A program made the translations under genes and the position numbers. Under the pieces are notes generated by a model. The model did not search any database. It saw nothing but the letters and a program-made list of their open reading frames with translations, and was not told the DNA's origin. Shown piece after piece: positions 1 through 32,675 of a stretch of 64,000 nt of DNA; the stretch's first letter is position 1; every line of letters starts with the position of its first letter. The stretch is from assembly GCA_010093605.1 (NCBI GenBank), contig MU004199.1, positions 1,054,001-1,118,000 on the forward strand, given 5' to 3'. The DNA is from Lophium mytilinum. Taxonomy: Eukaryota.

Positions 1-1640
1 CTTTACCTAACTATATAGCGGAAGTCCTTATAAGGACTTTAGGTAGTACTATTAAATAAGGTTCTCTTATAGCTAATATTTTCTTAAAGGCTTATTAGAG
101 CTCTTATATAGTTTATTCTAATAGACCTTTATTATAGTCTAGTATTAGATAATCTAAGGAAGCGTTAGATAATAGACCCTAAGAGTAGATAGTACTCTAA
201 GAAGTAGGCTACTACTAGGGGTTATCTAATATATTCTTAACGCGGGTATAGTAATTAGAAACTATAGCTTATAGCTATCTTAGTATAGTAGCCTACTACT
301 ACTATATAGAAGAAGCTAATATAAAACTAAAGAGTTCTAGTTTCTAGTAATCTATTATATACTCTATTATAGAGGCTTAAAAGCATTAATAGCTATCTAA
401 AGAAGGCGCAAATAATAGCCCTTAATAGGTAAGCTCTAGATTATAGGCCGGGGCACTACTATAAATAATTAGAGGACCTTAAACTAGTAGCTTAATAGGT
501 TCTAGGGCAGCGGCCTGCTTAGCCTATAAGGCTAATATTAGATTAGATAGATTATAAAATATAGTGCTAAACTAAGAGAGCCTTTAGAAGAGTTCTTAAA
601 GGTTAAAGAATAATCTATTAAAATAATAATATCTATTACTAAATATAAAAGAAAGCTAAGAGTTATAGAATATTTAAGGATAAGAAAGAGTAGAAAAGAG
701 TTAATAACTATAATATAATTAAATTAAAGAGTAAGAAAAGGGTGCTAAAATAGTAGTATTAAGTTTCTTTCTTAAATACTTTTTAATATCCTATTAGAGA
801 GGAAGAATCCTTAAAAGGACTTCTCCGCCTTCTTCTTATAATTAACTTATAAGAATTTCTAATTACTATATAATTATTAGGCTCTATTAAGCTATAATAT
901 TATTCTTCTTACTATTCTACTATTAATCTTACTTTAGTAGCTAATAGAACGCGTAGTTAGTTACATAGAAGTATTAAAAGGAATAGAAAAATCCTATAGT
1001 AATATTCTAGCTAAGAGCTCTTTAGACCTATACTATTTAATTTTTATAAGAATATTTATAATAGGCGGTTATACTATAATACTAGCCTAATGCTAATTAG
1101 GGGCTATTATTAATAGTTATTATTAATTACTAATTAGGTTAATTTTTAGAAACTATTAATACGGCTTAGTATTATTATAATAATCTAAAAATTCTACTAA
1201 TTATAGAAGCTAATATCTTCTATTATTACTAAGGGTTAATTATAAGAATATAGCCTTAGCTAGCTCTATACTATTAAGTTTAAGAACCTAATAGCTCTCT
1301 AAGAAGGCCTTAAAGGCGGCTAGAACTATAACTAAGCTACTAGATATAATATTTCTAATTACATAATATAAGAATTTAGAGAATAATAGATATTAATTCT
1401 ATATAGAAATCTAGCTAGTCTATATATATATTAGAGAGGCCTATATAGGCCTTAATTATACTAGATCTATATAGAAAGGTATTTCTATAGTAGATCTATA
1501 TATTATATATATAATATCTAAATATTAACTATATATTAAGAATTCTATAGGCTTAAAAGACTAATTCCCTCTCTATATAAGCGGACCGATATAAGCTGCT
1601 AAATATACAAGCTAATGAGCTTAGGTAATTAAAGGGTATT
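1..1640. mobile_element. RIP-degraded repeat/transposon relic, family not identified, truncated by the window start
   Basis: Very AT-rich, TpA-saturated, with CpA/TpG almost absent and no ORFs. Abrupt switch to ~50% GC near 1640. Short TCTATATAGAAA-like repeats at 1395-1500. Confidence 0.85.
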
Positions 1641-1679
1641 AGCGTGGATCTCGATCTGAAGAAAGTGGCCTTTCTTTCG

Positions 1680-4600
1680 TAATTTTTGAAACATTGATTC
1701 CGTCGGCGATCACCAGGTAATGCGCAACCACAACCACGGAAACCCGTAGAGATGTTTATCTCCTACAACGACCATGACACCACTTCGGAGAGGTTTTGCT
1801 TTTATCATGAAGGAGAAGCAGGCGGACTGTAGGTAGATTGACACTCGCCGCGACTGGACAGAAGCCGAACCCATATCTCTTCAGTGTTCTGGTGTTGGTG
1901 CTGATGAGCGTCTTAGCAGCAACTGGACCCAACACTAGTCCATTGAGCACCGTCCTTCAGATTTTCGACAGGCTTATACTTCCCGGACTCATCGAATTCA
2001 TGCAAGGCCGTGTTGATGCCTTGCTAATCGTGGAACGAATCTGATGTATGCGATTTCGAGCACGTGTTTTACTCGCTTAGGGTGTCGCTTAGGTGGATTC
2101 GGCGTGGGTGAAATTGTATCAACGGTGCTCTACATCTGGCTAAACCCTCGTAGAGCTAAAGCTTCCTTTCTCAGCCATCAGGTGTTGTTGATGAACAGCT
2201 GGCATGTTTCCCAGTTTCGAGCCTCAGCCATGGAAGAGCCGTCCTCAGGCTTTAGACTTTAGATAGCAGCTTTTGCTCTAGTCCAAACTGATGCTGAGAT
2301 CGAGAATTGTGATCGCTTGACGATTCAGAAGACTCGAAAACTTTCCATAGACCGCGAGGAGACGGTAGCTGATAAGTACCGAGAGGCAGATGTCGTTCAG
2401 AAGGAGTTCTTTGAAAATATTCACCATGGATCAATCGTTTTCCGCGGGACCGATAAACACATATTCCCTTACTGACCAGCCCGTCATGAGCCATACCTGT
2501 GCTCGGTATTGAAGGCCCATTGTAGTAGCTAAGACCCCTTTTGCTCATGGATCCATTTCTTTCCCCAGACTGACGCTACGATCTCCGGACATCGTAGTAG
2601 AAAACGGGTTGTGTACCGTAGGAGATACAGTAAATCTCGTTTCACCCTGGCTTTTGTGGCGGACTGCCAGCGAGCTCTTGCTCATAAAGTCAAATCAAAC
2701 AGTACCTTTGATGTCAATGGTGATCACGCTCCTGCCTCCAAGGCTTCCGATATATTCAACGGCCCTACTTGACTGCTAGAGTGACACATTCCGACCGTTC
2801 TCCAGTTTGACAGCCGGATTTAGATCGACTGGCAACTCCAGGATCGTGTTAGATTTGGGTTCCGGCTGATGAAGTCTTCCAGAGAAGATCCAAACAGAGA
2901 CATCGCCAGAGTTTCCACATCGAGTCCTTCATCCGGGAACAGCTCATATCTTAGCGTAAATCGCATGACATAGAAGTACGTCTAGGATTATGCACACTTC
3001 TAGTTATCATACCAGTAGACAACACGGCTGACATCGTGGCGCTCAACACATCGGATACCCGTTTACTCTCGGAGCCATACAGCTCCATTTCCATTGTTTC
3101 TGCATCGATTGACAACACCATGACCATGGTTTGAGAGGGTTTCGACTCGGTCTCCCGTAAACGGCTCGTTCCACGGATGGTCCAAGCAGAGACATGAAAG
3201 TGAGGGAATTCCTGGTGTCGGGCCGGGCCATGCAAATTCTCCAGATTTGTTTCCGATTATGCATGTCGAGGGAGGCAAAGGTAAACACCCCAACAAACAT
3301 CGTTCATCTGAGTTTGAGGTTGCGGAATTGCGTGAAGGTGATAGACTCGCGCTGCTATCGTTCAATACCCAATCTTTTCTACAAACCGTTCCACTGCCAA
3401 GTCATTCAAGAGAATTCTAAGTAGAGGCACGTAGCGATTGTAGCGAGAGTTTGAACTGTTTGCAACAGCATTCAAGAATACAGGCTAATAAATTTTGGAT
3501 CGTATGCTTTGGTAGTGATCGGAGATCACGGCTCCAAGAGCTGCCACGCGAGCAGACAGGATTTCGGCACCATCCTTCTCTTCCGCTGTCAATTTTGGTG
3601 ATCCATAGAGCCATGACGACTAGAACAAGCGTATATGTCGAGTCGCGTTGTGGCCTAATCACGTCCACCAGGAAATTCTCAGCCAGACACATGGAACCGA
3701 ATATGTTTACGTTTTGCGCCGAACACCATGGTCGGCCTAGCATTGTCGTATTGGTCATTTCATATCCTTCTTGAAGGGTTCAACGGCGGCGGCGCCAGAG
3801 AACACAACTCAGACACCAATAAAGGGCGTTGAGAATCCGGTGGAGTTATTGATGACATACGAGTAGCGATTTTGCCATCCGGGAATTTACTGCGACAGCT
3901 TCGCCTTGCTCATAGATTAGAGTTCATTGTCCTTTGATCTCACCCTTATGTACCGTTCTTTCGGTTTGCGGTGAACCAGGAGGATGTATGTCTAGTGATG
4001 GTTTAGACCCCAGCAAAAGAACCCCGGAGCCATCGGTTCCCACTACAATTTTGGTTAACCGAACGAATAACCATTTCATCCTATTTATGACGATTTGGAC
4101 ACCAGCCTCCTTCTTGTGAGATTCGGAGCAAGTTTTGACATGAAACATCACACCTTCCGAGTTTCTTGGTTGAGACCGCAACTGTAACAGCACACGGAGG
4201 AAACCGAGCGAGAGACACATCTCTCCTCGGAGGATTTCATAATCTCACACCGGCTCACCTAAGCTCACTACAAAAACTCTCAGCCAGAAACATCGGACGT
4301 ATGGAATAGCGTTGTTGCTACAATTATCCATGGATTCTCTCGACGAGAAGTTCGACCCAAGAACATATCCGCGTCCCATCGCGAGTCTTCGAGATGCCAT
4401 GCAGCTATTCCAAATCTCAGCTTACTCTCACCCATAGGTGTGAAAGGTTTATTTGTTTCTCTGCGCTGCCCATCAGTGCTTTGACTGGGGAAACGCACTC
4501 AGACTCATGGGTCTGTGGAATGCTCCCTTTTGCAACGCTCGTACGTTGGCAACCTTGCGGAGCTGTGAAATCAGCCATCACCATTCGGTTTGTCTTCTCA

Positions 4601-7600
4601 TTCATTTGGGAAATGCAGAATACTCTTTTGATAGGAGTCTGCGCACACATATTTATGGGAGGCGGCTCAGTATCTTAGAAAGATCCATCCCAGGTTTAAA
4701 ATTCCATTTTATCCAAGTTGAAGCGATTCGAGCCACTGTCGATCGACCCATACCGTTGTTTGAAAGGGGTGTACTAGTACAGTGCCCTGCCATAGATGTT
4801 GGTACACTGTCGATTTGTGTGTACTATGTTGACACTGTCTGGAGGACCATTAGGAGTTTGCTAGTACTCCAAAATCCCGAACCTCCCTCGTATTCGGGAC
4901 GCTGAAAATACCCTGAGGCTCCTCAAGCAGTGGTAAAGGAGTGCACGGGATATTATGACGAGTGACTGTAGGAGGTTAAAAGTCCAGGAGCAAGGTCATG
5001 ACTGTAGTTGCTGGACCATTACTACTCTTCTGATCTAAGAGTTGCTGCGGCGTCGGAAGACCACGCTGGAGAAGCTGTGCCAGGGACATATCGGAATTGG
5101 CTCTGTGGTGCTGTAACGAAAACCGTGCAATCACTTCAGAGAATGCACAGCCAGGCATGGGTCTCGGGCAACGAAAATTTGTGCCCACAACCATGTTTCC
5201 CTTGATGAGACCACTTTAAAGAACTTCTTTCTTCTCTTCCAGACACAGGCAGCCATGGGAAGTACGAACCTACGATTTCAATTTCGAAAACGGCAGGACT
5301 ACCGCATGGCCTCCAAACACGACGCCACTTATCATACATTAGGAAGGAGTCATGTTTGATGTCATAGCTGCAGGACTGTTACAATGGCGATATGCTCCTC
5401 GATGCGCTCAGTCTAAGATGAACCCTCTCACTCATAAGAGTTTTCTCTCCGGATGAGTGATCCCTATGCAATCGTGATAGTCGAGTGCCACTCTTCCGCC
5501 CGTAAAACACGATTTGTGACCAGTATTCACTTCTGCCGGGAACCCAAATATGGAAACTTGCAGCACTTTCTTTCAATACCGCAAACAAGCGCGAGGAACT
5601 AAATGGCGGACCCGGTCTAACAATTGGTCATAGAGGAATAGTGTCCGATATCTCAGTAGACCCTGGCCAAATCCACATATGACGACACTGATCACGATTT
5701 GGGGACACCGCACAGGAGTGCCGGAGACTCACATTCTGCGGAAATAGCAGCATGATTGACCTCCGCCGGGGTTCCGCACATAAAATCGTACGGTTTCGAG
5801 TTTCAAGACGCTGGGCAAGAATTCCGGACACTAACATGCGCGCCTCCCTTCTGCATACTTTTTAATGTTGAGTCCACCAAGGAGCCGAACATGGTATGTC
5901 CCACTGTGTCTTTTTGAGTTGCCTTTGAGTTTGAAAATGCCGGATCCGAACATTGTCGGTGAATGTCCAGATTTTGACTTCCAGCAGAGACCCACACATG
6001 TGTCGTATGCCTCCGGTCTTTTGTTGGAACTCCACGGGTGCCCAAGACACTACCACGAGGATGCTTTGACATGGCCGCGATCTTTTGTTCGTTTTTATGA
6101 GTACTCTCCGCGCGCAACAGACGCATAAACATATTCGAATACCGGTGTTGGAACTGCAGGGAAGAATGCCGTACGCGGACATCCTTCTCCGGTCTTCAGT
6201 AATTGACTGTCACATCAGGACCTGGCAGAAGATGTTCACGCACATACCGTCGCATCTCTTGTAGTACCTGATATCCACCGCATGATCCGTTCGATATCTT
6301 CAAGTTGAAGATACTGCAAACGAGCGCTAGAGACGACCATGGCGGATGGCCATAAATCATTTCACTACCGTACTGAGTTCCACAAAGAACAGACGCGTCC
6401 CATGTACCAGTCTTTCGGGTTGGAGATGTTGGGAGGGAATGGCAGACAGCGACACAAGTTTCTTCACTTTCGTCTTTGACACCACCGCGAACCCTAAGCA
6501 TCATCCGAGCATGTTTTCTAAATTCAAGCAGTTCAACACCCTCTGAGGCGGCCTGGAGTGCTATCAGGCTTGCCAAAGCCATTTTTTTGAGAATAGCAAT
6601 AGCATACTGGTGGACCCCAAACAATGCTATACAAGAGTATGTAAGCACATACTTACTGTGTATGCCACTGGACAGGAATGCCAGAGACCGACATGCAGAA
6701 AATTGTTGCCGTGTTATGATCCCACCAGAGGCCAGCACATAGAGCGAACTCTGCCAACCTTTTGTACTGGAGAATTGGCACAGGAACCCCGATAGCACCA
6801 TTCCAGAAGGTGTAGGAGGTATTTTCATCCGCCGGGAACCCACACATCAGATTACCAGTTGACTCATTTTTCAAAAAAACCAGACCTGAATTCCACAGCC
6901 AACATAATTTCAGATGCGTTTACGTTGACTTTCGCCGCAGTCCACTCATAGTCCTTGTCTGATTCTCGATTGGCTGCTGAAGCTCGTTTCCGCTCTTTCC
7001 CACGGTTCGGCCACATGTGAGCCTTTTGGCGGTAGAGATGAATGTGCTCCAGAAACTCATCCACGCATCGGGGTCTGCGTCGTCTTATCGTCGAGATACA
7101 CCAGAATTCGCTTCTTCCTCTTCCACGTGGTTTCGGATCGTTCGATGACAGAATGCCGAGACCCACAGGGCAACCACCCATAGGGCATGGGGGATCCCGC
7201 TTTTTCCCAATCGTGGGAGATACCGGACAAGGTCGCTTTTCGCTCCTATGGAGGAACATGTGTGCGACGAGTTGAACAGCGACCGGGAGTTCGCGATGAA
7301 ACTCGTTCTTCGAGATTTGGTTTCGAAGACACCCCAAAGCACTCCCGGTACTCTCCATTTGCGGTTGGCAAATGAGATGAGTGTTGGGCGGTATCGACTT
7401 CCAGCCAGAGACCCACACATGAGATATTTATACTGGTTGTTTCACCAGCCTCGTAGTTCTCTCCACGGCAAGATCCATCTCTCCCTGTGGATACGATATT
7501 GATTCCCCAAGAAACCCACACATCCAACAAAACTTTTGAAGGCGTCGTTGAACACCCCAAGCACACAACACCCTCCCCATCGAAGTAAGTGGTAAAGAAA

Positions 7601-7810
7601 GTTCAACGACATCCCACCAAGTCCACATAATCTCTTGGTCTGCTCCATCTTTCGAGACACCCCAACCTCCCACCAACCTCCACATGGCATACACTCTAGG
7701 AGCGTTTTTGGCGCCACCAACGCCCACCAGACCCAGCACGCTCCACCCAGCCCATGATGGAATGAGTGATTGTTTTCGAAGACCCCCACCCTCCCACTCC
7801 CATAGCCAGT
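1680..7810 (-). repeat. Highly diverged tandem array, ~100-130 bp unit, roughly 50 units
   Basis: The minus-strand motif ATGTGTGGGTTCCCGGCGGAAGTCAATAC recurs with substitutions and indels at 7523, 7420, 6949, 6847, 6740, 6501, 6126, 5999, 5892, 5781 and 5551. Most copies are preceded by a GGGGTGTCTTCGAAA-like motif. Weaker copies continue to ~1680. Confidence 0.75.
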
Positions 7811-8728
7811 CCAATCCCCTCAAAGTCCACCGAACACTGCCCTGAAGAATCGACCTTAGACTCGGGGGACGCCATTCTCTTATACCCCAATCCCGCCGAC
7901 CTCGGAGCTCTGCACGCCCGGCTGTCGGCGAGGATGCCGACGCGGGACACGTATGGTAACAAAAAAGGTGTCATTTGGCACGGGAGGTTGAGGAAGGAAG
8001 ACAGCACAGGGAGCCAATCGGGGTCCGCGACTAGTCGAGAGACGGGCACAGAAAGAAGAAAGATGGGACATAGTAGTATCATTGATGTTACGTTGAGGGA
8101 GAACACGTGAAAAAGGGAGAACATTGACCAATTGACGAGTTCGATGCAGCAGCTGAGCTCTCCGAAAGCCGCCGACGGGCACGAGGTAAGAAATCCTGTA
8201 CTACCTACAGTGACAGACCACGAGTCTGGGCACACTGGTACGCCACTGCTTGGGGTACCCCCACAGGGTTTCGGAGACTTAAGGCCGATGTCAAGCGTCA
8301 AGCCGTGCAGATTAGACTGCCTCTTGAATAATTGCCAGCTCAGCAACCAGGCTATCCCCGACAGTGGTGTTCAGTGGGCAGGTTCGAGCCGAGTCCGTAT
8401 GCCTAGACCTGTGGCCTGGGACTGTACCGTGGAGATAGGAGTAAGTCTACCCAATCCAAGGTAACCCGTGTCGTAAATCGACCATGTGGTAACAACAGCA
8501 ACGGCTCGAAGCCCCCGAAAGAAGCCGATTCGTATTGTGAACTCACCGCTACGAAAATGCTGCCCAATCCCACGCAATCATATGCCAAAATCCCACCTCA
8601 TGACGCTGTATGTACCGCGAACGCCCTCAAATGCCACATGCGCTGCTCAAACGCTATCACAACGCTATCACACGCCGCGGAACCCGTTCCGTCAACCACT
8701 TGTCCCCCTGATTACACTCAATGGCGGA

Positions 8729-10570
8729 CTACAGCGTATCTTCCCGCCAACGACTCCTGACGCGGTCCCACCCCTCCTTCTCTTTCAAGCCTCCCTTGTT
8801 TTCCAGACCCATCCCTCTCTCCACCCACTCACGTCCGCCCATCTCACTCAGCCGGCTCAGCGCTCGCGCAAACGCAAACCGTTCTTCATCGCCCGAGAAG
8901 AGTGACGAGTTCTTCAGCATACTCATATTCATCCCCAAATCATCCATCAAGTGCCGCATGACATCACTCACGTCCTCATTATCATCGCCCTTCGGGATCG
9001 AACCATCAGACTGTCCGCCTTTCATCGCATCGTCAAGCTCGTTGTGGCTGAGGAACAGCTCCGAAAGGGGCACGGCAGTAGTGAGGACAAGCTTAGCACG
9101 TGACTCGTAGACAGCGTCAATGAAGGTGATGAAACGGCGTGCTAGATCGCGACTACGAGTGTCCATCCCCGGGACATCTGTCACGATAAAGGCTTCGTAG
9201 TGCCGCATCAGCTCGAGGTAGTCAGCTGCACCTGTGGCACGGCGAATGATTTGGTCGAAAGTGAACATGGCGGCTTTCCCGCTGGCTTTGGCGACTTCGA
9301 TGTCGCGGCCCCATACTTGGTGCACGGCGTGGTGCGGGGGGTCGTTTTCGAGATCGCCGAGAAAGCGGAACCAACGCTCGGCGTGCGTTTTCGCGGCGGC
9401 GTTGAGGGGGTGGTGGTATACGCCTGAGGGCGGGCGTGGGATGCGGCGGTAGTCGGTTTCCGAGTCAAGGTTTAGGACTTGAAGGCGGGATTTGAGTAAG
9501 TTGATTGCGGGGATGAAGCTCTCGCGTTGGATGCCGTTTTTGTAGAGGTCGTCGGGGTGTCGGTTGGAAGTTGTTACTAGAACGACGCCGTGTGACATGA
9601 GGGATTCGATGAGGCTGGGGTATTTAGTGTCTATCCCTAATTCGACCAATACGACGAAGAGTTTTGGAAAGTAAAATGTGAGAAATTGATAGCGTACCGT
9701 CTCAATATCATGGCATCCGCGACGTCCGTACATTGAAATTCATCAAAACATAGCACGCTGCTCTTGCTAGCAATATCCGCTGCGACAAATGGGATCGCGT
9801 CAAACTCGTTTCCATACTTCATGTGAACTTTATGCACTTCCTTGTGGACACCCTGCATGAAGTTGAGAAAGTGTATCCTTGTTTTTGCCTTGATGTTTGG
9901 AGGTAGAGTGTCATAGAACAAGTCCATGAGCATAGTCTTTCCACTCCCAACATCACCGTACATGTATAGGCCTTTTGGTAGGAGGCTTGATATAGGTGGG
10001 AGTTTTATTTGGGGCGAAGAGGAGGAGAATATGGAGAAGAACGACTTCTTCGGTTTGAGGGACTCGACGGTTGGTTGGACGACTTCGGGGGGGCTGTATT
10101 TGGAGAGCATCTCGTGGAGGTCTTCGAGGTTTTGTACGATCCCTGAAAGACTGTATCAGTTCTAGTGTCCTATACTGTGCATGCATAAAAGCAAGGCATA
10201 CCTCGTTGGTGCTCATCTTCCTTCAGCCGTCCAGACTCGACACGGTCATTGTATTCAGCCACGGGTCCCCATGACTTGGTGTTTCCTTAAATATACTCCG
10301 TGAGACGCTTTCTTATAATCTGACATCCACAATACACGTACTCTGCAGTGACGTTGCGAGCCCCCTCCATGCATTGGGGGCAAACACCACCGGAAGCGTC
10401 CTCCTTCGCAAGCCACCTCTAGGTACAATGGAAGCCCAGCGACGGGTCCCTGGGCGTGAAACTCTCAAACAACTCGAACATAGTGTCCTTCGACCCTCGT
10501 AGGTCCTTTGCGATCGGTGGGCGGCTCGTAGCAGGAGCCGGAAGCCTTGGAGAGCGTCGGTCGAGCGCAT
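8729..10570 (-). CDS. AFG1: AFG1/LACE1/ZapE-family mitochondrial ATPase (multi-exon)
   Basis: KGLYMYGDVGSGKT Walker A, LCFDEFQ Walker B, TSNRHPDDLY and RRFITFIDAVYE family motifs. Arg-rich presequence-like N-terminus. Confidence 0.95.
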
Positions 10571-11780
10571 GGTGGGGGCGGCTGAAGTGCAAAAGAACGG
10601 GGAGAGGTTCGAAGATCGCTACGAGGGTACCATGACACAAAAACCAAATTGTGAGGCAAAACGATGCATGCAATTATTTACAGGATGCGACGACGTGGTG
10701 GTGACTTCGGGGTGAAATCTTGCGGGAGCGAGTTCTTCGGCACCATCCCTCGGCTTTTGGTCCCGCTTCGCGCTGATTGGGTGGGGCATCCTTCACTGCC
10801 GTGCCCTTCACATCTGTGTAGGTACTCCACACAAAATCCATCGGCGGGTCAGGTACGGCGTTTCGAAGACCTGGTTCGGAAGGCGTATGGAAGCGGAGAG
10901 AAGTGCGAGCCCGGAGCGCAGAAGGTGTCATACCGGCCCGTCATGGGTGTCTTTGCCAGGATATCTGACCTGCTTTTCTGACGACTCGCGGATGGCACTC
11001 TCAAATTGCTTCAAACAGGCCCATTTATTCTAAACGATACATGCCATGATCAGCTGTGGAATAGGAATAAACCACTAACTCAGACCGCATTCAGCTGTCA
11101 GAATTGCACATGACTTGCAAAGAGTAATCCATTCCCACGCATATCAGCGCATGGAGGTCAGGAGGATGGACTATGTTCGCATGTGAAAATGCCTCGTGTA
11201 TATTGCCCCCTACATTCATCGCACGGGTGGTGGAGAGACATGCGTGGGTACACTCCACAGGCTGCTGTATATTATTCAGCGCAGAAAGGAAAAAAGAAAA
11301 CAACATCACGCTGCAGAGAAGATCTCCACCTGCCGCCAGACCGACAACCTAGAATAGAACCCCACGTGGTCCCCGCTTTCACGCAGGCGGCGGTGCTTCT
11401 TTTGACCTCGCAAGATGGTGAAGAGCCTCATGGCACCGGAGCCCGTGAAGACGTGACGGCCTGGGACGCTGCCAGCCCTCTTGACATCATCTGTCGCGAT
11501 GCCTCGGCCGTTGTCCGAGACCTTAATCAGCTTGACGCCTTTAAATGGGCCCTTTAGTCCTCAGCACTTGGGCCAAACAGACGCCAGACTACTCTGACTA
11601 CAACTTCTTCCCTTACCCCATTACCCCATTACCCCGTCTTTTACGTTTGCGTTCCTTTCCGCCGGTACCTACGAAACCTGGCCAGCTTCAGACACGCCAT
11701 CTAGCGCCATTTGATCCGACTTACGTCGGCACGGGACGAGCGTAAGTTTGTACGCTCGCCTTGGCAGGGTACAAAACACA

Positions 11781-13246
11781 ATGGCGCAGCACGCCTATCA
11801 GACCGGCTCATCCCCATTCACCTCCTCTGACTCCCCTAAACTTCGACTCTCCCAGCTCTCCGACCAGCTATCCCCAATGGCCTCCACACACTTCGACGCC
11901 GATGTCGTCCCCCAAGCCCCCGAAGACCCCCTCTTTGGGTTGATGGCCGCTTACCGCAACGACACCTTCGACAAGAAGGTTGATCTCGGTATTGGAGCTT
12001 ACAGAGACAACAATGCGAAGCCGTGGGTCCTGCCCGTCGTCAAGAAGGTGCGTTGGAGCTTGCTTCAGCTCGAGCGAGCTTGCTGAGCTGCTCTCATACA
12101 TTTATGCTGACAGGTCTTGACGTCAGGCCGAAGAGGTGCTTCGGAACGACCCCGACTTCAACCACGAATACCTCCCCATTGCCGGCCTAGCGAACTTCAC
12201 AAGTGCATCGCAGAAGCTGGTGTTGGGTGCAGATAGCCCCGCAATCAAGGAGAAACGGGTGAGTCTGCCGCTTGATCCGCATGGCGGCCGGAGCTGATAG
12301 TGTGATTCCCCAGGTTACCACCGTCCAGACCATCTCCGGAACAGGTGCTGTGCACCTCGGAGCCCTCTTCCTCTCCAAATTCTATCCCGGCCGTAGCGTC
12401 TACTTCTCGGATCCAACATGGGTCAACCACCACCAGATATTCACCAATGTCCACATCAAAATCGCCACGTACCCATACTTCTCAGCCAAGACCAAGGGTC
12501 TCGACTTCGAGGGAATGCTAGACACAATTGGCAAGGCCGCAGAGGGTAGCATAGTTCTCCTCCACTCGTGTGCACACAACCCCACAGGAGTAGACCCTAC
12601 ACAAGAGCAATGGAAAGAGATTAGCAAGGTGATGAAAGAGAAGAAGCTCTTCCCCTTCTTCGATTCCGCATATCAAGGATTTGCCTCTGGCGATCTCAAC
12701 AAGGACGCATGGGCGATTCGATACTTTATCGAGCAGGGTTTCGAGCTCTGCATTGCCCAGAGTTACTCCAAGAACTTGGGTCTCTACGGAGAGCGTGCCG
12801 GCTGCTTCCATTTCGTGACAGGTGCATCCTCGGATGCTGAGTCAACAATTTCCCGCATTGCCTCCCAGCTCGCAATCCTTCAGCGCTCGGAAATCAGCAA
12901 CCCTCCCGCCTATGGTGCGCGCGTCGCATCGGCTGTCCTAAATGACGAGGCTCTTTTCGCGCAATGGGAAGAAGATCTCCGTACCATGTCCGGTCGCATC
13001 ATCGAGATGCGAGATGTCCTGCGAAGTAAGCTCGATGAGATGGGCACCCCGGGAACCTGGAATCACATCACGGACCAGATTGGCATGTTCAGCTACACCG
13101 GCCTTACGGAGAAGCAAGTCTTGAAGATCCGCGAGGCTGCTCACGTCTACATGACCAAGAACGGCCGAATTTCGATGGCTGGACTAAACACCAACAACAT
13201 CGACTACTTTGCCAAGGCGGTTGACAAGGTTGTCAGAGAGACTTAG
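11781..13246 (+). CDS. AAT2: Aspartate aminotransferase, cytosolic type (2 introns), with a possible PTS2 N-terminal extension
   Basis: KVDLGIGAYRD, HNPTGVDP, FDSAYQGFASG, PLP-lysine motif SYSKNLGLYGERAG, and GRISMAGL. Confidence 0.96.
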
Positions 13247-14004
13247 TTTGCCTTGCTTTGTATCAGGGGAGCTAAGTTAGTCTGATACCAGGCGTCATTG
13301 GATGGTTCCAGGGCTTGCTTAGTTTGGTCGGTCTTGCTTGGTTTAGTCGAGCTTGTTTCCTGCTGTACAATAACCGACTCGTAGGTTTCTGAATTACGGC
13401 CTAACGCTATAGACTTGGATGTCATGTCCAACATTTCTGTACTCAGTGTGCAATTTAGAAACTAAAACCTTCTTCTCACCACACATAGCGGTCGCCAGGA
13501 CATTTGACTTCCACATATCATACTGAACTTGAGCTGATGGTCTTGGGTTTTAACTAATACATGCTGCGAACTCAACGTTAGTCACCTGGAAATCGCTAGA
13601 TGTAGAATGCGAAGCCTGGAGAAGGCTTTTGAGCGAATGTTCTGTCGCGTCACATTGCGTACAGAAAGTTGTCAGCGTGATGCCGCTTAACATCTTTTTC
13701 GGGTGTGCTAGCGCGGCTGCCATCGGAGGCAGTCGCTCCTTCCTCAACTCACAGCAAGCCCCTAACTATGTTCTTGTCACCCTTTCCATCTCTTGTCCTT
13801 TCACTTTCCATACTGCACCTCTTTGCAAGTCGTCTCTACAGTCTACCTCTCCACAGCCATCAAGGCGTCCTGCCTTCGTCTTGTCTTGTCCACCGTGACG
13901 CCTAATTTGCCCACATACCTCGACCGGCATCACTTTAGCGTCATAAACAGCGCATGCCAGAGCTAGAACGAAGCTCACATCCCCCCCAAGAGACTTCTGC
14001 GAAC

Positions 14005-16128
14005 ATGTCTTCGCCCTGGTGGAACCGCAAATCGGCGTCTCCCTCGCCTAGCGACGGAGCAGAGGATTCGGGCAAAGCCTCGCGACTGAGTTTACGTCAT
14101 CGTCGCTCTGAGCTGCCCGTTCCTAAAGGTCTGCAAACTGGCACGAGGCTCAAGAGGTTCCTGTATGACGCATCACACCTTCTTTCGCTTCCAAGATTCT
14201 AACATCGTCTAGTTCGTCAAAGGCTTTGCGTCAGGAAGCCCCTGTAAGTATTTCCGTTCCATATTGTTTGCCGAACCCCGTCCATTCCAGAAGTTTGCTT
14301 CAGAGCGTGACCATTCTTTCATCAAACCCCATTCTTACCTATCATTCAATCCTTGCCGCACCTGCACATCCATCCACCAACTCGTTACCTCACTCTCCTG
14401 TCAAGACGCTCCTTAGTGAAAGCTACATCGAGATTCGTTTCAAACTTGTTTTCACTGGGTACTGATAGCCTTCAGGGAGTCGAATCAGACCCTTCCTACA
14501 ACACCATCATGCCCGACACGGAGCACAACTTCGCCAGCATTCCCGCCGTTGACGGTCCTCCAGATAGCCCTCCCGTCATGGCTCCTCAGCCAGCAGTCAA
14601 AGGCCATCAACTCGTTGCACGGCCTCGTGTAGACTCTTCCCTCCAAGACTACACTTTCGAGAAGTTTCCAGCCGAAGAGGATATCCCAAAGACGGACAAC
14701 ACTCCAGTGAGGCCAGACAATGCTTCAATGAGGCCCAAAACCCGCGACGCCACGCCTCCTGGCAATTCAACCATCGAGCTTGTCAAACACATTGGATCTA
14801 GAGTCCTTGGCGTTATCGACGATGGAGACTCTGCTATCTTCGCCCAACGTACCAGTACTAAGAAGGCAGTGGAGCGCATTCCTGCTAGAGATGCCATTGC
14901 TATGGGCCTTGGTTTCCAGGACGCAAGCCAGGAATACTGGTGGAACGGCCTCACTCCCCTCATCGAGAGCCTGATGATCAAAGCACAATACCCAGATCAT
15001 CTCAAGTATGCATACTTCGGATTCATTGCCAAGTTTATCCTTCCATCCCTTGGTTCCCACAGCGGCAACCAACCGGCCATTCCCAAAATCACTCACGACA
15101 GATGCCCCTTGGAGCCAAGCCTGAACATCTCAAAGTCCAGCCTCACCGTCCGCTTCACCATAGAGCCTCGTGGCCCCTTCGCCGGCCTACCCCAAGACCC
15201 CTTCGGCCAGCTCCAGGGCCGCAAGCTCTTCGACGAGATTCTCGCCTCGTCCCCGCTCGCGACCAACATCGACAGCATCCTCTTCAACCACTTCGCCAAC
15301 GAGTGCTGGGTCCCGAAATCCACCGCCTCTGCCCTCGACATCCCCCGAGACCGCATCCCCCCGCAATGCCAACTCGCCTTCGACCTGCACCCAACCAAAC
15401 CCTCCATCAGCCTCAAAGCCTACTTCATCCCCCGCGTGAAATCCCTTATCCACTCCACAAACGCGCAAAACATGGCCTTCGACGCCATTGCGCGCTGCCC
15501 CTCCTTCGACACCCTTGGCCCCGCCTTCTCCATCCTGACAGCCTACATGTCCTCGCTCCCGGACTCCCGCAAATTCACCGTCCAGATGATCGCCGTCGAC
15601 TGCGTCCACCCGTCCACCGCCCGCGTCAAGGCTTACGCGAAACCCGGCATCGGCGTCCCCGTCAGCATCGCGCATATCTGCGATATGTACACGCTCGGCG
15701 GCCGCCTCTGCTCGAAGACGACGATGGAGGGCCTCGACGTGCTGCGCGCTATCCTGCCCCTCCTTCTCGATGCCGAGGACGAGGACCCAGACACCCTGCT
15801 CACGCGCCCGCTGAACGCGCACCACCACGGCGGCATCGTCGCGAGCTACGAGCTGATGCCGGGCGCGCCTGAGCCCGAGGTCAAGATCTACGTGCCCGTG
15901 TGGGCGTTTGTGCGCAACGATCGGGTGGTGGCGGAGAACCTGACGAGGGTGTTGAGACGGTTTGGGTGGGATACGCAAGCGGTGTGGTATGCGCCGGAGT
16001 TTGAGGCGATGTTTGAGGGAACGTTGGGGAAGGCGGGCAGGCATTGTTATGTGTCGTTTGCGTGGACGGAGGGGAGGGGGGCGGGGTTGACGGTTTATTA
16101 TAGTCCGGGGGTTGGGGTGGTGGAGTAG
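14005..16128 (+). CDS. DMATS-superfamily aromatic prenyltransferase with a long low-complexity N-terminus (5' exons uncertain; alternative start 14509)
   Basis: PLEPSLN, LAFDL, LKAYF, RVKAY, KIYVP and VYYSP motifs typical of DMATS enzymes. In-frame splice path 14005-14162 / 14213-14243 / 14476-16128. Confidence 0.88.
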
Positions 16129-22759: not shown

Positions 22760-23402
22760 GCTTAGTGACTCGGAATACGCTATTTGAAGCGAAAATTGGA
22801 TAGGAGGAGTAGAAAGCTGGGAAAGTCTGCTAAGGTGGACGGGCACGTAGTGCTTCATCACGAGCCAAACCACGCGAGGCTATGCCTAGGTATTTGTGCT
22901 TGAGTGTGTACATCTTGGGCCCAGTTAGCAATTGTCAATGGAAAGACAGGAAGTCCTCCCGCTGAGCCGTGTCTGGGCATGGCTGGACCTAGAGGCCTTG
23001 GAAAGGAAGTAGGCGCAGCCGAGACTTCTGGATCCGCGGCGTATGCTCCCCAACCGGTCAGCAGCTGTAGCGCAGCATGGTGGTTGGCGTGATGAAGGGG
23101 GGAGTCATGCAAGGCTGAACTTCTCATCCCGTCGAAAAGCCTTGGCATTATTGGACCTGGTTAAACCTACCTAGGTAAGGTTGGAAGGGTGTTCGCCTTA
23201 GCGCGCGTTTAAGGTTGGCACGGTTAGATCTCGTCCCGCCACAGCCCTCCCCTCTTTCCGTTCTTTACCACATGCGAAATCCCTATGCATGCGATCCAGC
23301 AACAGCCCGATTTACAACCCAATTCTCTCAATCTATGCGTTCTCAGGACCATAACGCTTCTCTCCATCCATTCTATGGCTCCCAGAGCTCGTTTTGTCAG
23401 TC

Positions 23403-26400
23403 ATGAGCGCGGCAAAGAAGGTCGCAAATATGCAGCAGCTTCCAGTCGCCAAGGATGAGGGGAGGATGAAGAAACATATCCTTGCGAGGCAGCTTGTTCT
23501 TAATATAAAATCACCGGCTCGACTAGAGGTAATGCGACTACTAGAGGACTGTAACGCTGACCCTGATGTTGGCATAAATTGGGACAACACATACATCTTC
23601 CCCCTTACGGAAGCTATTTCCATGGGGTTTGCGATGGCAGAGACACTTCTGATCAAAGGGGCGAAGTTGAAGCCCTGCCACGATATCCTACATCACAACA
23701 TGCCACCGGCGCTGAGTCACCCCATTACTGTCGCAATTGCCAATCGGCAGACGGAGATGGTACATTTGATGCTTGCCTACGGCGTCCCCGTAAACTTTAC
23801 CTGGGACGTTGCCAGGGACGGCATGAGGACCCCTTTCATCGAAGCGCTTTCTCGCGGAGACCTAAAGTTGGTGCGAGTGCTCCTGGATCACGGTGCCGAC
23901 GTTTTCCAAAGTAATCTTACCCAGCTGAGCCCGGGACAAATGTCTCGATACACTAGCAGGTTCGATCCACGACAAGCCCAACTCCTGGGGCTCTTGTCAC
24001 AGTGCAAAGCACTGCATCTTTGGCCTTATCCTTCCGGTCTTGCGCTTCTCCATGCGACTGGAATTGGAAACCGCGAACTGATGGAACACCTCGTGAGTGA
24101 CGGGTTTGTGGAAACCAAGCTTGCCAACGAGAACCGTTTGACTGCTTTACATTTGGCAGCAGGCGCTGAGGGAGGTGATATTATCGAATTTCTGCTCGCG
24201 AAAGGTGCATCCGTCGAGTCCCTGGATACCTACGGTACTACACCACTGATGCATGCGGTTTTTTACGGGAATTTGGCTGCGGTGGAGCGTCTCTTGTCAT
24301 TTGGAGCCACTGCGAACGATTTCTTCCGTCGAAACGAATATCTTCCTGTCGCGGTTCCAGCAGTCCCGTTCGAGTATCATTTTGATCGTATCGCAAAGAC
24401 GCTGTCAGGATTCGCGCAGTTCCGCGAGTTTGAATGGTCAGCAATACAAGTAGCGTCTCATCGAGGCTTTTGTAAGATCCTTACTGTCCTACTTAAAGCT
24501 GGAGGAGATCCCTATTATCAGTCCATAGATGGAAAAACAGCGCTTGATGTTGCAATAAACAATCGTCATTGGCGCGTTGTTAACGACTTACTTCAACTAG
24601 GCGTCAACTTCAACGCCACGAAACCTTCAGTTGCTCGGCTTCTCGAAGAGACGAGTGATGATTATAACAGCGAGGCTGCGTGCCTATTGGTCGAACGCGG
24701 AGCTAATCCATCGACGATGTTTTCGGATATCAAATTCAAAGGGCTAGAAAGAAATACCGAAAATCTTGCCATCCTCGACGAAGCGACTAAAGCACTGTTC
24801 CTAACAGCGGAACCACGTGATCCTAAAAGAGAGTCAAAGTTCTGCTCAGCATGCTCGAGGCTTTTCGAAAGACCGCCAATATCGTTTGAGACTGTACTGG
24901 AAGGGTGTCACGACAGTCGGACTAGTTGCGCCATCTGCGCGCTTGCAAGAGATAGCATCCGATCGCTTTCATCCCTTCAAAGATGGGACATACGTTTTTC
25001 TGGATTGATGAATGTGCGCGATGAACGCTTTCGAATATACCTCTGTGGAAAAAGCCACGAAGTCCAACAATTCCCAGGTCAGTACTACAATTGCTAAGCG
25101 TATACACAAAAGACGCCTCTGTAAACCGATCACTACTATCCCGTCCACCTTTCCACGCTTCCCTCTACGCGAATCTCATTATTCGTTACCTCATGTCATA
25201 CTCTACCGTCCCAATCGCGAACACACGTTAGCATGGAAATCCCTCTTTACACCCGCCACCTCTTGTCCGCATGGGTGTGCCTCCTAACACTCCACCTAGT
25301 AAATTGGGATCGCGTTCTATCAGAGGCCAGCCAACTCCAGGACGTCGGGACAGGATCACCGGCTGCAACACGAGTTGCAATTCACTGGCTTCGAAACTGT
25401 ATCGCAGGCCATTGGCAGTGCAACATAGCCATGCATCGGCGGTTTTTTCCCACCCGGGTTCTTGATACAGGCCCCCCGGGAATTCTAGCAGAACCTGTAC
25501 TTCTCGAAGCGGACTCTTACCGTGGGCCATATGTTGCTTTGAGTCATCAATGGGGAACGTCCACTCTTCCACGTACTACGCTTGCCAACATTAAGCAACG
25601 AAGACAGTCAATACCGCTAGCAGAGTTGACGAACACAATGCGGGATGCTATCTCAATAGTCCGAAATCTAGGGTTCCGCTATATATGGCTAGACGTTGCT
25701 TGTATTATACAGGACTCGAAAGAAGATTGGCTAGCCGAGTCTTCCAAGATGGCTGATGTTTACCGATCCGCAATACTGACACTAGCAGTAGCGGACGCTG
25801 AAGATCACAGCGAAGGCATTTTCCGACCACGAGAAGCACACTGCGTAAGGCCTATCCGCTTCGAAGACTTCCGTATGCCGCGAAGGGAGCGGAGCTGGTT
25901 TGATGGCGAGGGAGCGCTGTATATCGTGCCCTCATCTCATCAAGTTGCCAAAGGTGTCCGTCCGAGGGGACCGCTGGATTCTCGGGGCTGGATCCTCCAA
26001 GAACAGCTCCTCTCACCTCGCATCCTTTATTATGGAAAAGGAGAACTGTTCTGGGACTGCATCTCCACGTCTGCTTCTGAGTCTTCTCCCGTCTCCGCGT
26101 CGCTTCTTGACGATGAGAAGTCTTCCGAAACTTGGGCCATGAAGCTGATCCGAAGGGCCATCGTTGGCGGAGGCGATCCCGGGACAGTCCAGAGATACAT
26201 GCAAAACGTGTGGATCGAGCTTATTCAGAACTATTCAGCCAGAAGTCTGACGCGGCCTCTGGATAAGCTGGTGGCCATGGAGGGAATTCTTTCGGCGGTG
26301 GAGCAAATATTCGGTGATGCTGTTGTCGCCGGCTTGTGGAAAGATGGACTTTGGCGTCAACTGACCTGGTGGACTGTGAGTAAGGAGGTTACTGTCGACT

Positions 26401-26894
26401 CTCAGCCTACAGCTGCTAGGTTTACGGCTCCTTCATGGTCATGGCTCAACGTCGAAACTCCCGTTTTGTACCGCAACACTCTTCACCCCGAGTACAAAGA
26501 GTTGGCGTCGGTAGTGCAGATACGCGAAGTGCGCGAAGAAGTTTTATCAACAAAGGCCGAGATTCGAGGAAGGCTCACTATATCCGGACTTACCTTTCCT
26601 TACCTTCTTACTTCGGACGACTTCAGAGTGAAGATCTGGAAACAGTTCCATCGCAAGCATCTCAATTGCGGTCAGTGGTGGCTTGACGAGCCATTGGAGT
26701 TGCCGCAGAAGATCGAATGTTTGATCCTGGCGGAGGATGCGAACCTGAAGATGCTAGTTTGTCTATGTTTAATTCCGGCGCAGGAGGAAGGGGTCTTTAA
26801 GCGAATTGGCCTTTGTCACTGGGAAGGAATGCGGCACGAAGTTTATAGATTCGCTAAGATTCGACCAGAGGAGCGTCTGATCACTATTGTATGA
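23403..26894 (+). CDS. Ankyrin-repeat plus HET (heterokaryon incompatibility, PF06985-type) domain protein
   Basis: Ankyrin motifs TALHLAA, TPLMHAV and TALDVAI, and a CxxC...CxxC linker. HET motifs YVALSHQWG, RYIWLDVACIIQDS and SRGWILQE. Intron 25078-25299 joins the two ORFs in frame. Confidence 0.9.
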
Positions 26895-30820: not shown

Positions 30821-32675
30821 TCATGAAACATTCCATCTGCCAAGACTAAGAGCCGCATCCATCGCAGCTCGTCTCCGGCGTCTATTTTGCGACTCAGCTA
30901 TCGTAGGACGGGTAATCGGCTCGCCTTTAGTGTTTTCCTGGGACGACAAGGACGTTATCGAGATCGTCGGAGAGACTGGGGAGGGGTACGACGATATGCT
31001 GCTTGCTCTAAGTTTTGACGGTGGCCGTGAGCTCGTCGGCTTTATTGGGTAAGAAGGTTGAATCTGATCGCTAAAGTATTGACTCGGTTTTGGAGGTATT
31101 GATGGGTAGTAAGGGGGGGTAACCTCGAGCCCGGCCTCCATGGATAGCGATGGTTTTCGTCTATCGGAGTACAGATTTGATACCGGGGGTATATTTGGAG
31201 TCATCGATGTACTATCTTGAGTTCGGATCGTCGGAGACGACGACTGAGGACTTGTAATATCCCTCCTCTCTTGTAGATACCTGAGATATGGATCCAGCCC
31301 ACGCTCGACATCTGGGCCTTTGACAGGGGGAGAGCTATCAGTGGGCAGTTCGACATACCCGATGCGGTACGGATTCTGGTATGGGGTTATGGCCGCTTGG
31401 TGGGCGGCCAACTCCACTGGCACCGGCCCTTGGACGACCACGACTTCCTTCGCTGGCAAAACCGCTTGCCTGGTTGATGTGCTTCCAGTTTCTACCGACA
31501 CGGAGCTCATCATCTGGAGCAGACTTGGCCTGGTACCCAAAGAAATTTGAGTTGCGGAGGCAGGAAGTGGTCTTCGGTTGACTGAGTATCTTCTCGTATC
31601 CCACCCGGCTACTGCTGCTTGTTGGTGTGTGTCTGTGGGCGGGTTGTAACTCGAAGTTGAACCCGCTGATTGGGATATCGTGCTATCTGAAGGGGCTGGT
31701 GGATACTGTGCAGGTCGTTGATTTATGTTCAAGTCCCCAGGTTTACTAGCAAGCTCCCAGGGGTCTACAGGTCCAAGCCGATTGGGAGAATTAACAGAGT
31801 CCAGCTCCGCAATATAGTCGTTCGAAGGGTAGTTTGGATTTGGCGAAGCTTTGTAAGCCCTCACGTCCCATCCTGGAAAGAAGGCCTCAGAATGTTGCGT
31901 CTTATCTGACTGATTCGAACTTCGTACGGGCGGCGGTGTTCCCGGTTCCCACCGTGGAGGACATGCCGCTGTGGATTGGATATTGGGCTGCGGTACATTC
32001 TCTATCTCTAAACCGGCATCAGTACTTGTCATGGGGTAAATAAACACAGGAACAATGCGTACGTGTTGCCTCAATCTTCCTCTCAATCGCTGTCTCCTCC
32101 GCGATAGTCTCTTCTTTCCTCCTAGCCTTCTTCCTTCTGCTATACGGACTCTTGAAATCTAGATCGTCAATCACAGCATCATACATCGGCGGCGGCCCTA
32201 GTCCCTCCTTATCTTGATTGATACCTCCATTGCCTCCGCCATCAGCTTTCGTCTCAAGCTGATGCAGTTGCCCCAAAACCAGCGTCAGGCTCTGATGACA
32301 AGCACTCATTTCCATCCGCCGATTATCCAGGTTCTCGCGATCATTCATGAGCCAACGTACTCGATGCCCAAAGCTAATCGTTCCGTCCCTTTCCTTGTCG
32401 CTTCGCGCTCTCTCCACATACAACCCGATCTCATTCAGCGCGCATTTCGTGCCATAAACTTTACTCTCTATCCAGCGTTTCTTATCCGGGTTTTGGTCAA
32501 GCGAGGCCCGAATAGACGGCTGGTGCAGCAGTCGCTCGCATTCAGAAAGGTCGGATCGCACGTTCTGAATCATTCGTACGAAGACGTTGTTTTCGTCGTC
32601 CACGTCATTCAGCCGGATCACGAACTCGGAGAAGTTCCAGAGCGTGTTGATACCGCTGAAGATGCCGCCGTCCAT
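30821..32675 (-). CDS. Protein with a HeLo-like / fungal STAND N-terminal-like helical domain and a long disordered tail
   Basis: The ~140-aa amphipathic helical N-terminus ends HRVRWLMND...HQSLTLVL, a pattern shared with the NLR N-terminus at 48066-48509. Intron 32008-32062 fuses the two ORFs in frame. Confidence 0.7.

What the first reader, a model, noticed from the sequence alone, without database searches (positions are those of the whole stretch)
1680..7810. Cryptic ~6-kb array of about 50 highly diverged ~110-bp units that shows no RIP signature
Seen: this gene-free, ~50% GC stretch has only broken ORFs but carries an ordered three-part motif on the minus strand. Part A is ATGT.GGTCTC.GGCATTC (e.g. 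6905, 6694, 6182, 5837, 5734). Part M is GGGGTGTCTTCGAAA (7775, 7652, 7548, 7322, 7091, 6870, 5803, 5572, 4392, 3360, 3285). Part B is ATGTGTGGGTTCCCGGCGGAAGTCAATAC (7523, 7420, 6949, 6847, 6740, 6501, 6126, 5999, 5892, 5781, 5551). Where neighbours can be followed, spacing is ~100-130 bp and often not a multiple of 3, so no common reading frame survives. CpA is abundant although the array abuts a fully RIP'd block. Inference: either an ancient satellite or repeat-protein relic, or a maintained non-coding array (polycistronic small RNAs or protein-binding sites) with conserved cores and diversified interiors. Copies left of ~4300 are weak, and the unit count is an estimate.
Basis: partly seen in the sequence, partly recalled or inferred. 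Interest (0 to 1): 0.85.

Follow-up and report, generated by a model that had tools for sequence, protein, structure and literature searches.

The report
Decayed orphan repeat array beside AFG1
A real but very eroded tandem repeat of about 2.3 kb lies just downstream of a fungal AFG1 gene; it is most likely the broken remnant of a lineage-specific repeat-coding sequence, with no sign of current function.

Summary
The motifs are real, lie only on the minus strand and far exceed chance. The array is much smaller than claimed. About 2.3 kb (5520-7830) holds 8 solid B cores, 6 A cores and about 5 W/M cores in roughly 21 slots of 103-111 nt. Left of about 5300 only one B-like site passes controls. 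Cores are about 70% alike, while the interiors are at chance level. The lack of a RIP signature is confirmed and expected, since the units fall far below the RIP identity threshold. The minus strand is the most stop-poor stretch of the window: 43 stops against 85 expected, spread over all three frames. Its ORFs are longer than in any shuffle. However, there is no period-3 signal, no Pfam or Rfam match, no homolog, no fold and no RNA structure. An RNA run shows weak, unspliced cover that fades with distance from AFG1. Best reading (0.45): a decayed, lineage-specific repeat-coding relic that is transcribed by read-through. Interest is low to moderate.

The parts
5520..7830 (-). The array proper: about 2.3 kb and about 21 slots of 103-111 nt. 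Each slot carries the ordered cores M/W, then B, then A.
7495..7523 (-). B core (reads MCGFLGESI in its ATG frame)
   Evidence: (E 0.004)
7392..7421 (-). B core, with 1 extra base compared with the other copies
   Evidence: E 1.9e-4
6819..6847 (-). B core (MCGFPADENT)
   Evidence: E 5e-5
6712..6740 (-). B core. An A core follows 46 nt downstream.
   Evidence: E 0.0015
5971..6000 (-). B core. An A core follows 46 nt downstream.
   Evidence: E 1.4e-5
5864..5893 (-). B core. An A core follows 55 nt downstream, and the next B lies 111 nt on (in frame).
   Evidence: E 0.0024
5753..5781 (-). B core (MCGTPAEVNH)
   Evidence: E 3e-4
5523..5552 (-). B core (IFGFPAEVNT). This is the left-most solid copy.
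   Evidence: E 3.8e-4
6670..6694 (-). A core
6431..6455 (-).
6158..6182 (-). A core
5929..5953 (-).
5813..5837 (-). A core
5710..5734 (-). A core
7317..7812 (-). Copies lie at about 7774-7812, 7727-7755, 7650-7685, 7552-7580 and 7317-7358.
   Evidence: families D4, D11, D18; M hits at 7788 and 7335
1681..5300 (-). Left flank with no robust units. One B-like site lies at 2872-2897. The minus strand is mildly stop-poor (156 stops against 188.6 +- 9.5 expected). There is no Pfam match and no RNA cover below 4738.
6196..6846 (-). Longest open frame (216 aa). It was called as protein P0001 in public collections, has no relatives, and the Atlas model has pLDDT 0.28.
6143..7797 (.). Unspliced RNA-run contig, colinear with the genome (depth 9.3, 0 differences)
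   Evidence: table 8
8206..8428 (.). Dispersed high-copy repeat between the AFG1 stop codon and the array. The sequencing-run contigs break here.
   Evidence: tables 2, 3, 8
8729..10572 (-). AFG1-like ATPase gene (PF03969, E 4e-50). Three introns are confirmed by a spliced RNA contig.
1..1640 (.). Fully RIP-mutated AT-rich block abutting the region

Best explanation
The stretch 5520-7830 on the minus strand is the eroded remnant of a lineage-specific tandem-repeat coding sequence. Its unit was about 35-37 codons.

While it was translated, selection kept a few short islands in each unit and let the interiors drift to saturation. The islands are B (roughly M-C-G-[FS]-[PL]-A-E-V-N-T), A about 46 nt later, and an M/W island before B.

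The gene then died. Small insertions and deletions moved neighbouring units into different frames, and a few stops arose. Some of these stops are TGA inside the M island, at the place where other copies carry CGA.

Today the DNA is a non-coding tail downstream of AFG1. It is weakly transcribed, probably by read-through from AFG1, and is not spliced.

Shown: the motif array, its order and spacing, the contrast between cores and interiors, strand-specific stop depletion, the absence of any present coding signature, weak colinear RNA cover, and the absence of relatives.

Inferred: the former coding function, the order of events, and read-through as the source of the RNA.
For: (1) The motifs are strand-specific and have a fixed order. 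B-to-A distances are 46, 46, 46, 47, 55 and 44 nt. A-to-B distances are 58, 56, 61 and 56 nt. These come from coordinates. One of the 46-nt units has only a weak B, at 6501.

(2) Cores are 0.70 identical against 0.51 for shuffled controls (z 13.7). The interiors score 0.46-0.52, which is control level. That pattern needs past selection.

(3) The minus strand of 5800-7970 has 43 stop triplets against 85.0 +- 6.2 in 200 dinucleotide shuffles, while the plus strand has 64 against 77. TGA is the most depleted of all 64 triplets (z -4.8). TAA is third (z -3.5) and TAG is sixth. TGG, TAT and TAC are the most enriched. The observed/expected ratio of 0.51-0.56 is the lowest of any 2-kb window on either strand.

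(4) The ORFs of 216, 187 and 180 aa sum to 583 aa, which 0 of 200 shuffles reached. Only 11 frame switches are needed to traverse 5300-7970 without meeting a stop, against 23.1 +- 3.2 (minimum 17) in shuffles. The plus strand needs 18.

(5) Core variability has a triplet period. For B it is 5/16/18 by position (p 0.005-0.011). For A it is 7/17/17 (p 0.025-0.058).

(6) pN/pS is lowest in the ATG frame for B (0.59, against 2.34 and 0.80). For A it is lowest in the frame starting 1 nt before its ATG (0.60, against 0.73 and 1.32). These are one and the same frame when the B-to-A distance is 46 or 55 nt, as in 4 of 6 units.

(7) The RNA contigs are colinear with the genome. Depth falls along the minus strand away from AFG1: 657, then 39.6, 9.3, 5.1 and 3, then none.
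Against: - There is no period-3 compositional signal. The median is 1.22 in 24 windows, against 2.6-7.6 in most real ORFs of this window.
- GC content is flat across the three codon positions.
- There is no Pfam match in any of the six read-through frames at E up to 1, nor for 18 separate ORFs.
- No relative was found. The 216-aa ORF hit only itself. An exhaustive phmmer search with 1200 read-through residues of one frame also hit only itself. The other two frames found nothing among proteins of 489-1558 aa.
- Peptide profiles of the two half-units recover only their own seed copies.
- A unit profile finds no repeat protein in the PDB.
- Predicted structures are poor: pLDDT 0.28 on the Atlas's 0-1 scale and 45.5 on AlphaFold2's 0-100 scale.
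- The triplet pattern is odd for codons, with one class low and the other two equally high.
- The pN/pS differences rest on 6 copies of 9-10 codons and are small.
- A and B share a DNA string that their best frames read in different registers, which fits DNA-level conservation as well.
Confidence: 0.45

Rival explanations
1. This is a maintained non-coding array. The B, A and M cores would be binding sites for a DNA- or RNA-binding factor, held at fixed spacing. One possible role is a termination or boundary element between the expressed AFG1 gene and the RIP-mutated AT-rich block.
For: - Cores and spacing are kept while interiors are free. B-to-A is 46 nt, which is not a multiple of 3, in three units.
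- The A and B cores share a DNA string that is read in different registers (sequence shown).
- The array sits between a gene and a RIP block.
- It lies in a zone where transcript cover fades.
- There is no coding signature now.
Against: - The CGG triplets of the best copies read TGG or CAG in most other copies, so any candidate site is not kept (sequences).
- The B core occurs nowhere else in the other 51 kb.
- This reading does not explain the stop depletion with matching TGG/TAY enrichment, nor the triplet periodicity.
- None of 80 AFG1-bearing fungal contigs carries anything similar. However, those relatives are distant (62-83% AFG1 identity) and not syntenic.
Confidence: 0.17
2. This is an old non-coding minisatellite or higher-order tandem repeat that has drifted neutrally. 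It was never selected, and the 'cores' are simply the last recognisable pieces.
For: - Tandem Repeats Finder sees nothing, and divergence is very high.
- Transitions and transversions are about equal, which indicates saturation (22:23 and 20:15).
- The array is lineage-specific, has no relatives, and has no RNA structure.
- A founder unit poor in stops would leave all three frames open.
Against: - Neutral decay cannot leave 29-nt cores at 70% identity while the sequence between them is at chance level and the spacing stays fixed.
- After saturation of the interiors, a founder effect on stop triplets should have gone too. Yet the strand is the most stop-poor in the window.
Confidence: 0.15
3. 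This is a cluster of small structured RNAs (snoRNA, tRNA-like or microRNA-like), or a small-RNA-producing locus processed from the read-through transcript.
For: The unit size is about 105 nt, the arrangement is on one strand, and the stretch is transcribed at a low level.
Against: - There is no Rfam match at E up to 1 in 1-12000, apart from a chance-level hit inside the AFG1 last exon at 8855-8947.
- There is no tRNA.
- Mean fold z is -0.36. The only windows below -2.5 are the two overlapping ones at 7225-7389, so no recurring unit structure exists.
- Small-RNA data were not available.
Confidence: 0.04
4. This is a live protein-coding gene, decoded unconventionally or as several short ORFs.
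For: The open frames are long, the strand is stop-poor, the region is transcribed, and most cores start with ATG.
Against: - The RNA contig 6143-7797 is colinear with the genome, so no splicing repairs the frames.
- There is no period-3 signal.
- Structure predictions are poor.
- There is no consistent short ORF behind the ATGs.
- By direct reading of the flanks, the bases before these ATGs share no common context. That such a context would be expected at a start codon is recalled knowledge, not tested here.
Confidence: 0.03

Closest known systems
Unitary (orphan) pseudogene of a tandem-repeat protein
   Same: Like such a pseudogene, it has sense-strand stop depletion, long but broken frames, repeat units with a few conserved positions and free interiors, frameshifts between units, and weak transcription.
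   Different: No parent or relative can be found in any searched collection. No codon-composition signal remains. The unit matches no known repeat family.
Helical repeat families with 33-35-residue units (ankyrin, TPR, PPR)
   Same: The unit length (103-111 nt, or 34-37 codons) is close. By eye and from recall, the B core resembles the loop of such repeats.
   Different: No Pfam match was found, although an intact ankyrin gene in the same window is detected at E 1.6e-30. A unit profile finds no repeat protein in the PDB.
Minisatellite or higher-order satellite DNA
   Same: The copies are arranged head to tail on one strand, and two core types (B and A) alternate like a dimeric higher-order unit.
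   Different: Satellite monomers are similar along their whole length. Here only 25-30-nt islands are alike, and Tandem Repeats Finder reports nothing.
Read-through (downstream-of-gene) transcription
   Same: RNA cover falls stepwise with distance from the 3' end of AFG1 and is unspliced.
   Different: Contigs give neither the strand nor the continuity of the RNA. A high-copy repeat at 8206-8428 breaks the assembly between AFG1 and the array.
RIP-mutated repeats
   Same: The array abuts a RIP block, and it is repetitive.
   Different: RIP indices are normal, and differences between copies are not dominated by C-to-T or G-to-A changes.

Membership tests
Ankyrin / TPR / PPR repeat proteins | Match to the family profile | tested here: not met
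   Pfam found no such hit at E up to 1 on six read-through frames and none at E up to 10 on 18 ORFs. A unit profile against the PDB gave no repeat protein.
Ankyrin / TPR / PPR repeat proteins | Regular unit of 33-35 residues in one frame | tested here: inconclusive
   Adjacent B-to-B spacings are 103, 107, 107 and 111 nt. Only one is a multiple of 3.
Pseudogene | Disabling frameshifts or stops in a sequence that bears marks of former coding | tested here: inconclusive
   Stops and frame breaks are present. Stop depletion and core periodicity favour former coding. No period-3 signal remains.
Pseudogene | Recognisable functional parent or ortholog | tested here: not met
   The only hit was the query itself. 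Searches found nothing. None of 80 AFG1 loci carries a match.
Minisatellite / satellite | Head-to-tail units alike over their whole length | tested here: not met
   Tandem Repeats Finder found no array at minimum score 30. Interiors are at chance-level identity.
Minisatellite / satellite | Copy-number variation among individuals | not testable with these tools
   Only one DNA sample, and one RNA run with identical sequence, hold the locus.
Polycistronic small-RNA cluster | Rfam family match or a recurring stable fold per unit | tested here: not met
RIP-affected repeat | TpA/ApT above 0.89 and (CpA+TpG)/(ApC+GpT) below 1.03 (thresholds recalled, not from a call) | tested here: not met
   The values are 0.56-0.66 and 1.18-1.22.
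Protein-binding-site array | The motif is kept intact in its copies and recurs at other targets | tested here: inconclusive
   CGG triplets are lost in most copies, and there are no other copies in this window. No whole genome is held, so the genome could not be scanned.

The most novel reading that the evidence does not exclude
The array is not dead DNA but a maintained element that is open in all three frames on one strand. It could be a boundary or termination array that shields AFG1 from the adjoining RIP-mutated heterochromatin. Alternatively, it could be a repeat 'cradle' kept free of stops in every frame, so that slippage-driven frame changes still give translatable products (an emerging de novo gene).
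Probability: 0.12. Interest if true: 0.65.

Novelty: new member of a known kind. Interest (0 to 1): 0.3.

Why it matters
If the main reading holds, this is an ordinary piece of genome erosion, but an instructive one for annotators. A repeat too decayed for standard repeat finders still leaves a clear strand-specific stop-codon deficit and conserved islands, and public pipelines call it as a 210-aa 'protein'.

If instead the array is maintained, it would be a rare candidate for a sequence-defined border element next to a RIP block, or a locus where a new gene is forming. Both would be testable by deletion and by comparison with sister species.

Tried and rejected
- Whole-genome scan: no genome is held for this window, so motif counts across the genome and paralog searches could not be run.
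- Earlier findings of this scan: nothing by place or by sequence.
- RNA runs: no listed holder is on record as RNA. X3 was labelled only as a guess. I treat it as RNA because its AFG1 contig is spliced. Parts of the region without contig cover are not evidence of silence.
- Peptide-level self-comparison gave only marginally more hits than shuffles: 36 hits below E 0.1, against 1-12 in shuffles and 22 on the plus strand.
- Peptide half-unit profiles found no copies beyond their seeds.
- The Atlas feature search scored 0.76, below the level that means anything.
- The AlphaFold2 single-sequence model of the in-frame 86-aa stretch 7431-7688 had pLDDT 45.5. No fold search was made with it.
- The three short multi-copy pieces (4847-4943, 6527-6579, 8206-8428) do not resemble each other.
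- Synteny: only 1 of the 12 longest and closest AFG1 contigs that I checked, out of 80, shares a second gene with the window, and in a different arrangement. Orthologous positions could therefore not be compared.
- A resemblance of the B core to a yeast Rap1 site, to Pol III A/B boxes and to Zn2Cys6 CGG sites was considered from memory only. I dropped it because the copies do not keep those bases.
- The first literature look-up (PMC5496416, one passage read) held nothing on RIP thresholds.

Full report
CONTEXT. The window is fungal. Two AT-rich blocks, at 1-1640 and about 39200-43900, carry extreme RIP indices. The gene to the right of the finding is an AFG1-like ATPase on the minus strand (PF03969, E 4e-50). 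A contig of run X3 crosses three of its introns with GT..AG ends on the minus strand, which shows that X3 holds RNA. No whole genome is held for the window, and earlier notes of this scan hold nothing on it.

- Motif A has 6 hits on the minus strand, none on the plus strand, 0.12 expected from 100 shuffles, and none in the remaining 51 kb.
- The first 20 nt of motif B have 6 hits against 0.01 expected.
- A position matrix finds 12 B-like sites between 5336 and 7527. Their spacings are 103, 239, 113, 221, 107, 342, 399, 107, 111, 230 and 219 nt, which are near multiples of about 105-115. It finds none on the plus strand.
- nhmmer gives 8 significant B copies.
- Autocorrelation in 5500-7810 is 3.6 times the shuffle level, with peaks at 103-105 and 124 and at their multiples.

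Against the claim:
- Tandem Repeats Finder reports nothing in 1680-7810.
- M as a 15-mer is weak, with 2 hits.
- Left of about 5300, a matrix trained only on strong copies finds a single site above the shuffle maxima (2897).
- The array therefore spans about 5520-7830, with about 21 slots, of which 8 carry a solid B core and 6 a solid A core.

ANATOMY.
- The cores come in a fixed order on one strand: M/W, then B about 15-25 nt later, then A.
- B-to-A distances are 46, 46, 46, 47, 55 and 44 nt. A-to-B distances are 58, 56, 61 and 56 nt. These use coordinates. The B copies at 6949, 6501 and 6126 and the A copy at 6905 are weak.
- The 29-nt B core is 70% identical between copies, against 51% for shuffled controls (z 13.7).
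- The stretches between cores are at control level (0.46-0.52).
- Differences between copies show about equal numbers of transitions and transversions. This indicates old, saturated divergence that RIP did not drive.

THE RIP QUESTION. The region has normal RIP indices, while the adjoining block is fully mutated. This is expected. In Neurospora, RIP needs at least 80% identity over at least 400 bp (PMC3017866, Background passage read), and these units are far below that.

A NEW OBSERVATION: STOP DEPLETION ON ONE STRAND.
- On the minus strand of 5800-7970 there are 43 stop triplets (14, 19 and 10 in the three frames) against 85.0 +- 6.2 in dinucleotide shuffles. The plus strand has 64 against 77.
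- Among all 64 triplets, TGA is the most depleted, TAA the third and TAG the sixth. TGG, TAT and TAC are the most enriched.
- In a scan of the whole window with 2-kb windows on both strands, this stretch has the lowest observed/expected ratio (0.51-0.56). The strongest coding region, the DMAT gene, reaches 0.54.
- The three longest frames (216, 187 and 180 aa) together exceed all 200 shuffles.
- A stop-free path through 5300-7970 needs 11 frame switches, against 23.1 +- 3.2 in shuffles.
- The left flank 1681-5799 is mildly depleted on the same strand (156 against 188.6 +- 9.5).

SIGNS OF FORMER CODING IN THE CORES.
- Variability in the cores has a period of three. For B it is 5/16/18 (p 0.005-0.011) and for A it is 7/17/17 (p 0.025-0.058).
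- pN/pS is lowest in the ATG frame for B (0.59). For A it is lowest in the frame that starts one base before its ATG (0.60).
- With a B-to-A distance of 46 or 55 nt, these are the same continuous frame, as in 4 of 6 units.
- In that frame the unit reads roughly as follows: Q-K, six residues, M-C-G-[FS]-[PL]-A-E-V-N-T, five or six residues, then H-V-S-[VL]-R-H-S-C-P.
- In three units the M island carries an in-frame TGA where other copies have CGA or CAA. This fits decay at a CpG.

These signals are small and rest on 6-8 short copies.

SIGNS AGAINST A LIVING GENE OR A KNOWN FAMILY.
- There is no period-3 compositional signal (median 1.22, against 2.6-7.6 for most real ORFs here).
- GC content is flat at the three codon positions.
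- Pfam finds nothing in six read-through frames or in 18 ORFs. In the same window it detects an intact ankyrin gene at E 1.6e-30.
- The 216-aa ORF has only itself as a hit (P0001, a called ORF from the same 1.45-Mb contig).
- An exhaustive phmmer search of 1.84 billion representatives with 1200 read-through residues of one frame found only P0001.
- The other two frames found nothing among proteins of 489-1558 residues. Shorter or longer relatives were not searched for those two frames.
- A unit profile finds no repeat protein in the PDB.
- The Atlas model of the 216-aa ORF has pLDDT 0.28 on a 0-1 scale. An AlphaFold2 model of an 86-aa in-frame stretch has pLDDT 45.5 on a 0-100 scale.

NON-CODING RNA READING. 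There are no Rfam hits at E up to 1, apart from a chance-level one inside the AFG1 last exon (8855-8947). There is no tRNA. Mean fold z is -0.36, and the only windows below -2.5 are the two overlapping ones at 7225-7389, so no recurring unit fold exists.

TRANSCRIPTION.
- In RNA run X3, contigs identical to the window cover 7804-8252 (depth 39.6), 6143-7797 (9.3), 5518-5798 (5.1) and 4738-4974 (3). The AFG1 mRNA contig has depth 657.
- The 1655-nt contig is colinear with the genome, so splicing does not repair the frames.
- The stepwise fall along the minus strand suggests read-through from AFG1. This is an inference, because contigs give neither strand nor continuity.
- A high-copy dispersed repeat at 8206-8428 breaks the assembly at exactly that point.

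RELATIVES.
- Eighty fungal contigs with AFG1 (62-83% identity to the last exon) were fetched from metagenomes.
- blastn of 1681-8728 against them gave no hit at E up to 1e-3.
- tblastn with 120 ORFs from both strands gave 7 weak hits (best E 0.001), none of them meaningful.
- Of the 12 longest and closest contigs that I checked, out of 80, only one shares a second window gene, and in a different arrangement. These relatives are too distant to say whether close kin carry the array.

VERDICT. The repeat is real but cryptic, about 2.3 kb long and confined to one strand.
- Best reading (0.45): the eroded remnant of a lineage-specific repeat-coding sequence, now part of a weakly transcribed tail behind AFG1.
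- Rivals: a maintained binding-site or boundary array (0.17), a neutrally decayed minisatellite (0.15), a small-RNA cluster (0.04) and a live, unconventionally decoded gene (0.03). The remainder is unassigned.
- It belongs to a known kind of feature (a decayed orphan repeat), and interest is low to moderate.
- The stop deficit in all three frames is the one feature that deserves a second look in sister genomes.

Noticed in passing
window 8206-8428: A dispersed repeat of about 220 bp lies between the AFG1 stop codon and the array. Dozens of other contigs in both runs match it at about 80-90% identity, and summed depth is about 13,900 against about 94-140 for single-copy DNA. It has no Rfam or tRNA match. 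It is possibly a SINE- or MITE-like element.
   Followed up: partly
window 4847-4943 and 6527-6579: Two short stretches inside the region also match multi-copy contigs of the genome (summed depth 559 and 1605). They do not resemble each other or the repeat at 8206-8428.
   Followed up: partly
window 12263-16128: A class I/II aminotransferase lies next to a tryptophan dimethylallyltransferase (PF11991, E 3e-85) in a 62% GC stretch. This may be part of an indole-alkaloid type secondary-metabolite cluster.
   Followed up: no
window 23355-26894: An ankyrin-repeat ORF is directly followed by a HET-domain ORF on the same strand. This may be one incompatibility or NLR-like gene split by an intron.
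   Followed up: no
window 27469-28614, 30821-32158, 33531-34745, 36046-36945: These long ORFs (299-445 aa) have no Pfam match at E up to 1e-5. Two of them also have a weak period-3 signal (median 2.3-2.6).
   Followed up: no
window 7225-7389, minus strand: This is the only place in the array with an unusually stable predicted RNA fold (z -4.2 and -2.6 in two overlapping 110-nt windows). It does not recur in other units.
   Followed up: partly
L071 16941-18432 compared with window 11844-13243: In the closest AFG1-bearing contig (83% identity), the aminotransferase homolog lies downstream of AFG1 on the same strand. In the window it lies upstream on the opposite strand. The AFG1 neighbourhood has therefore been rearranged between these lineages.
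   Followed up: no
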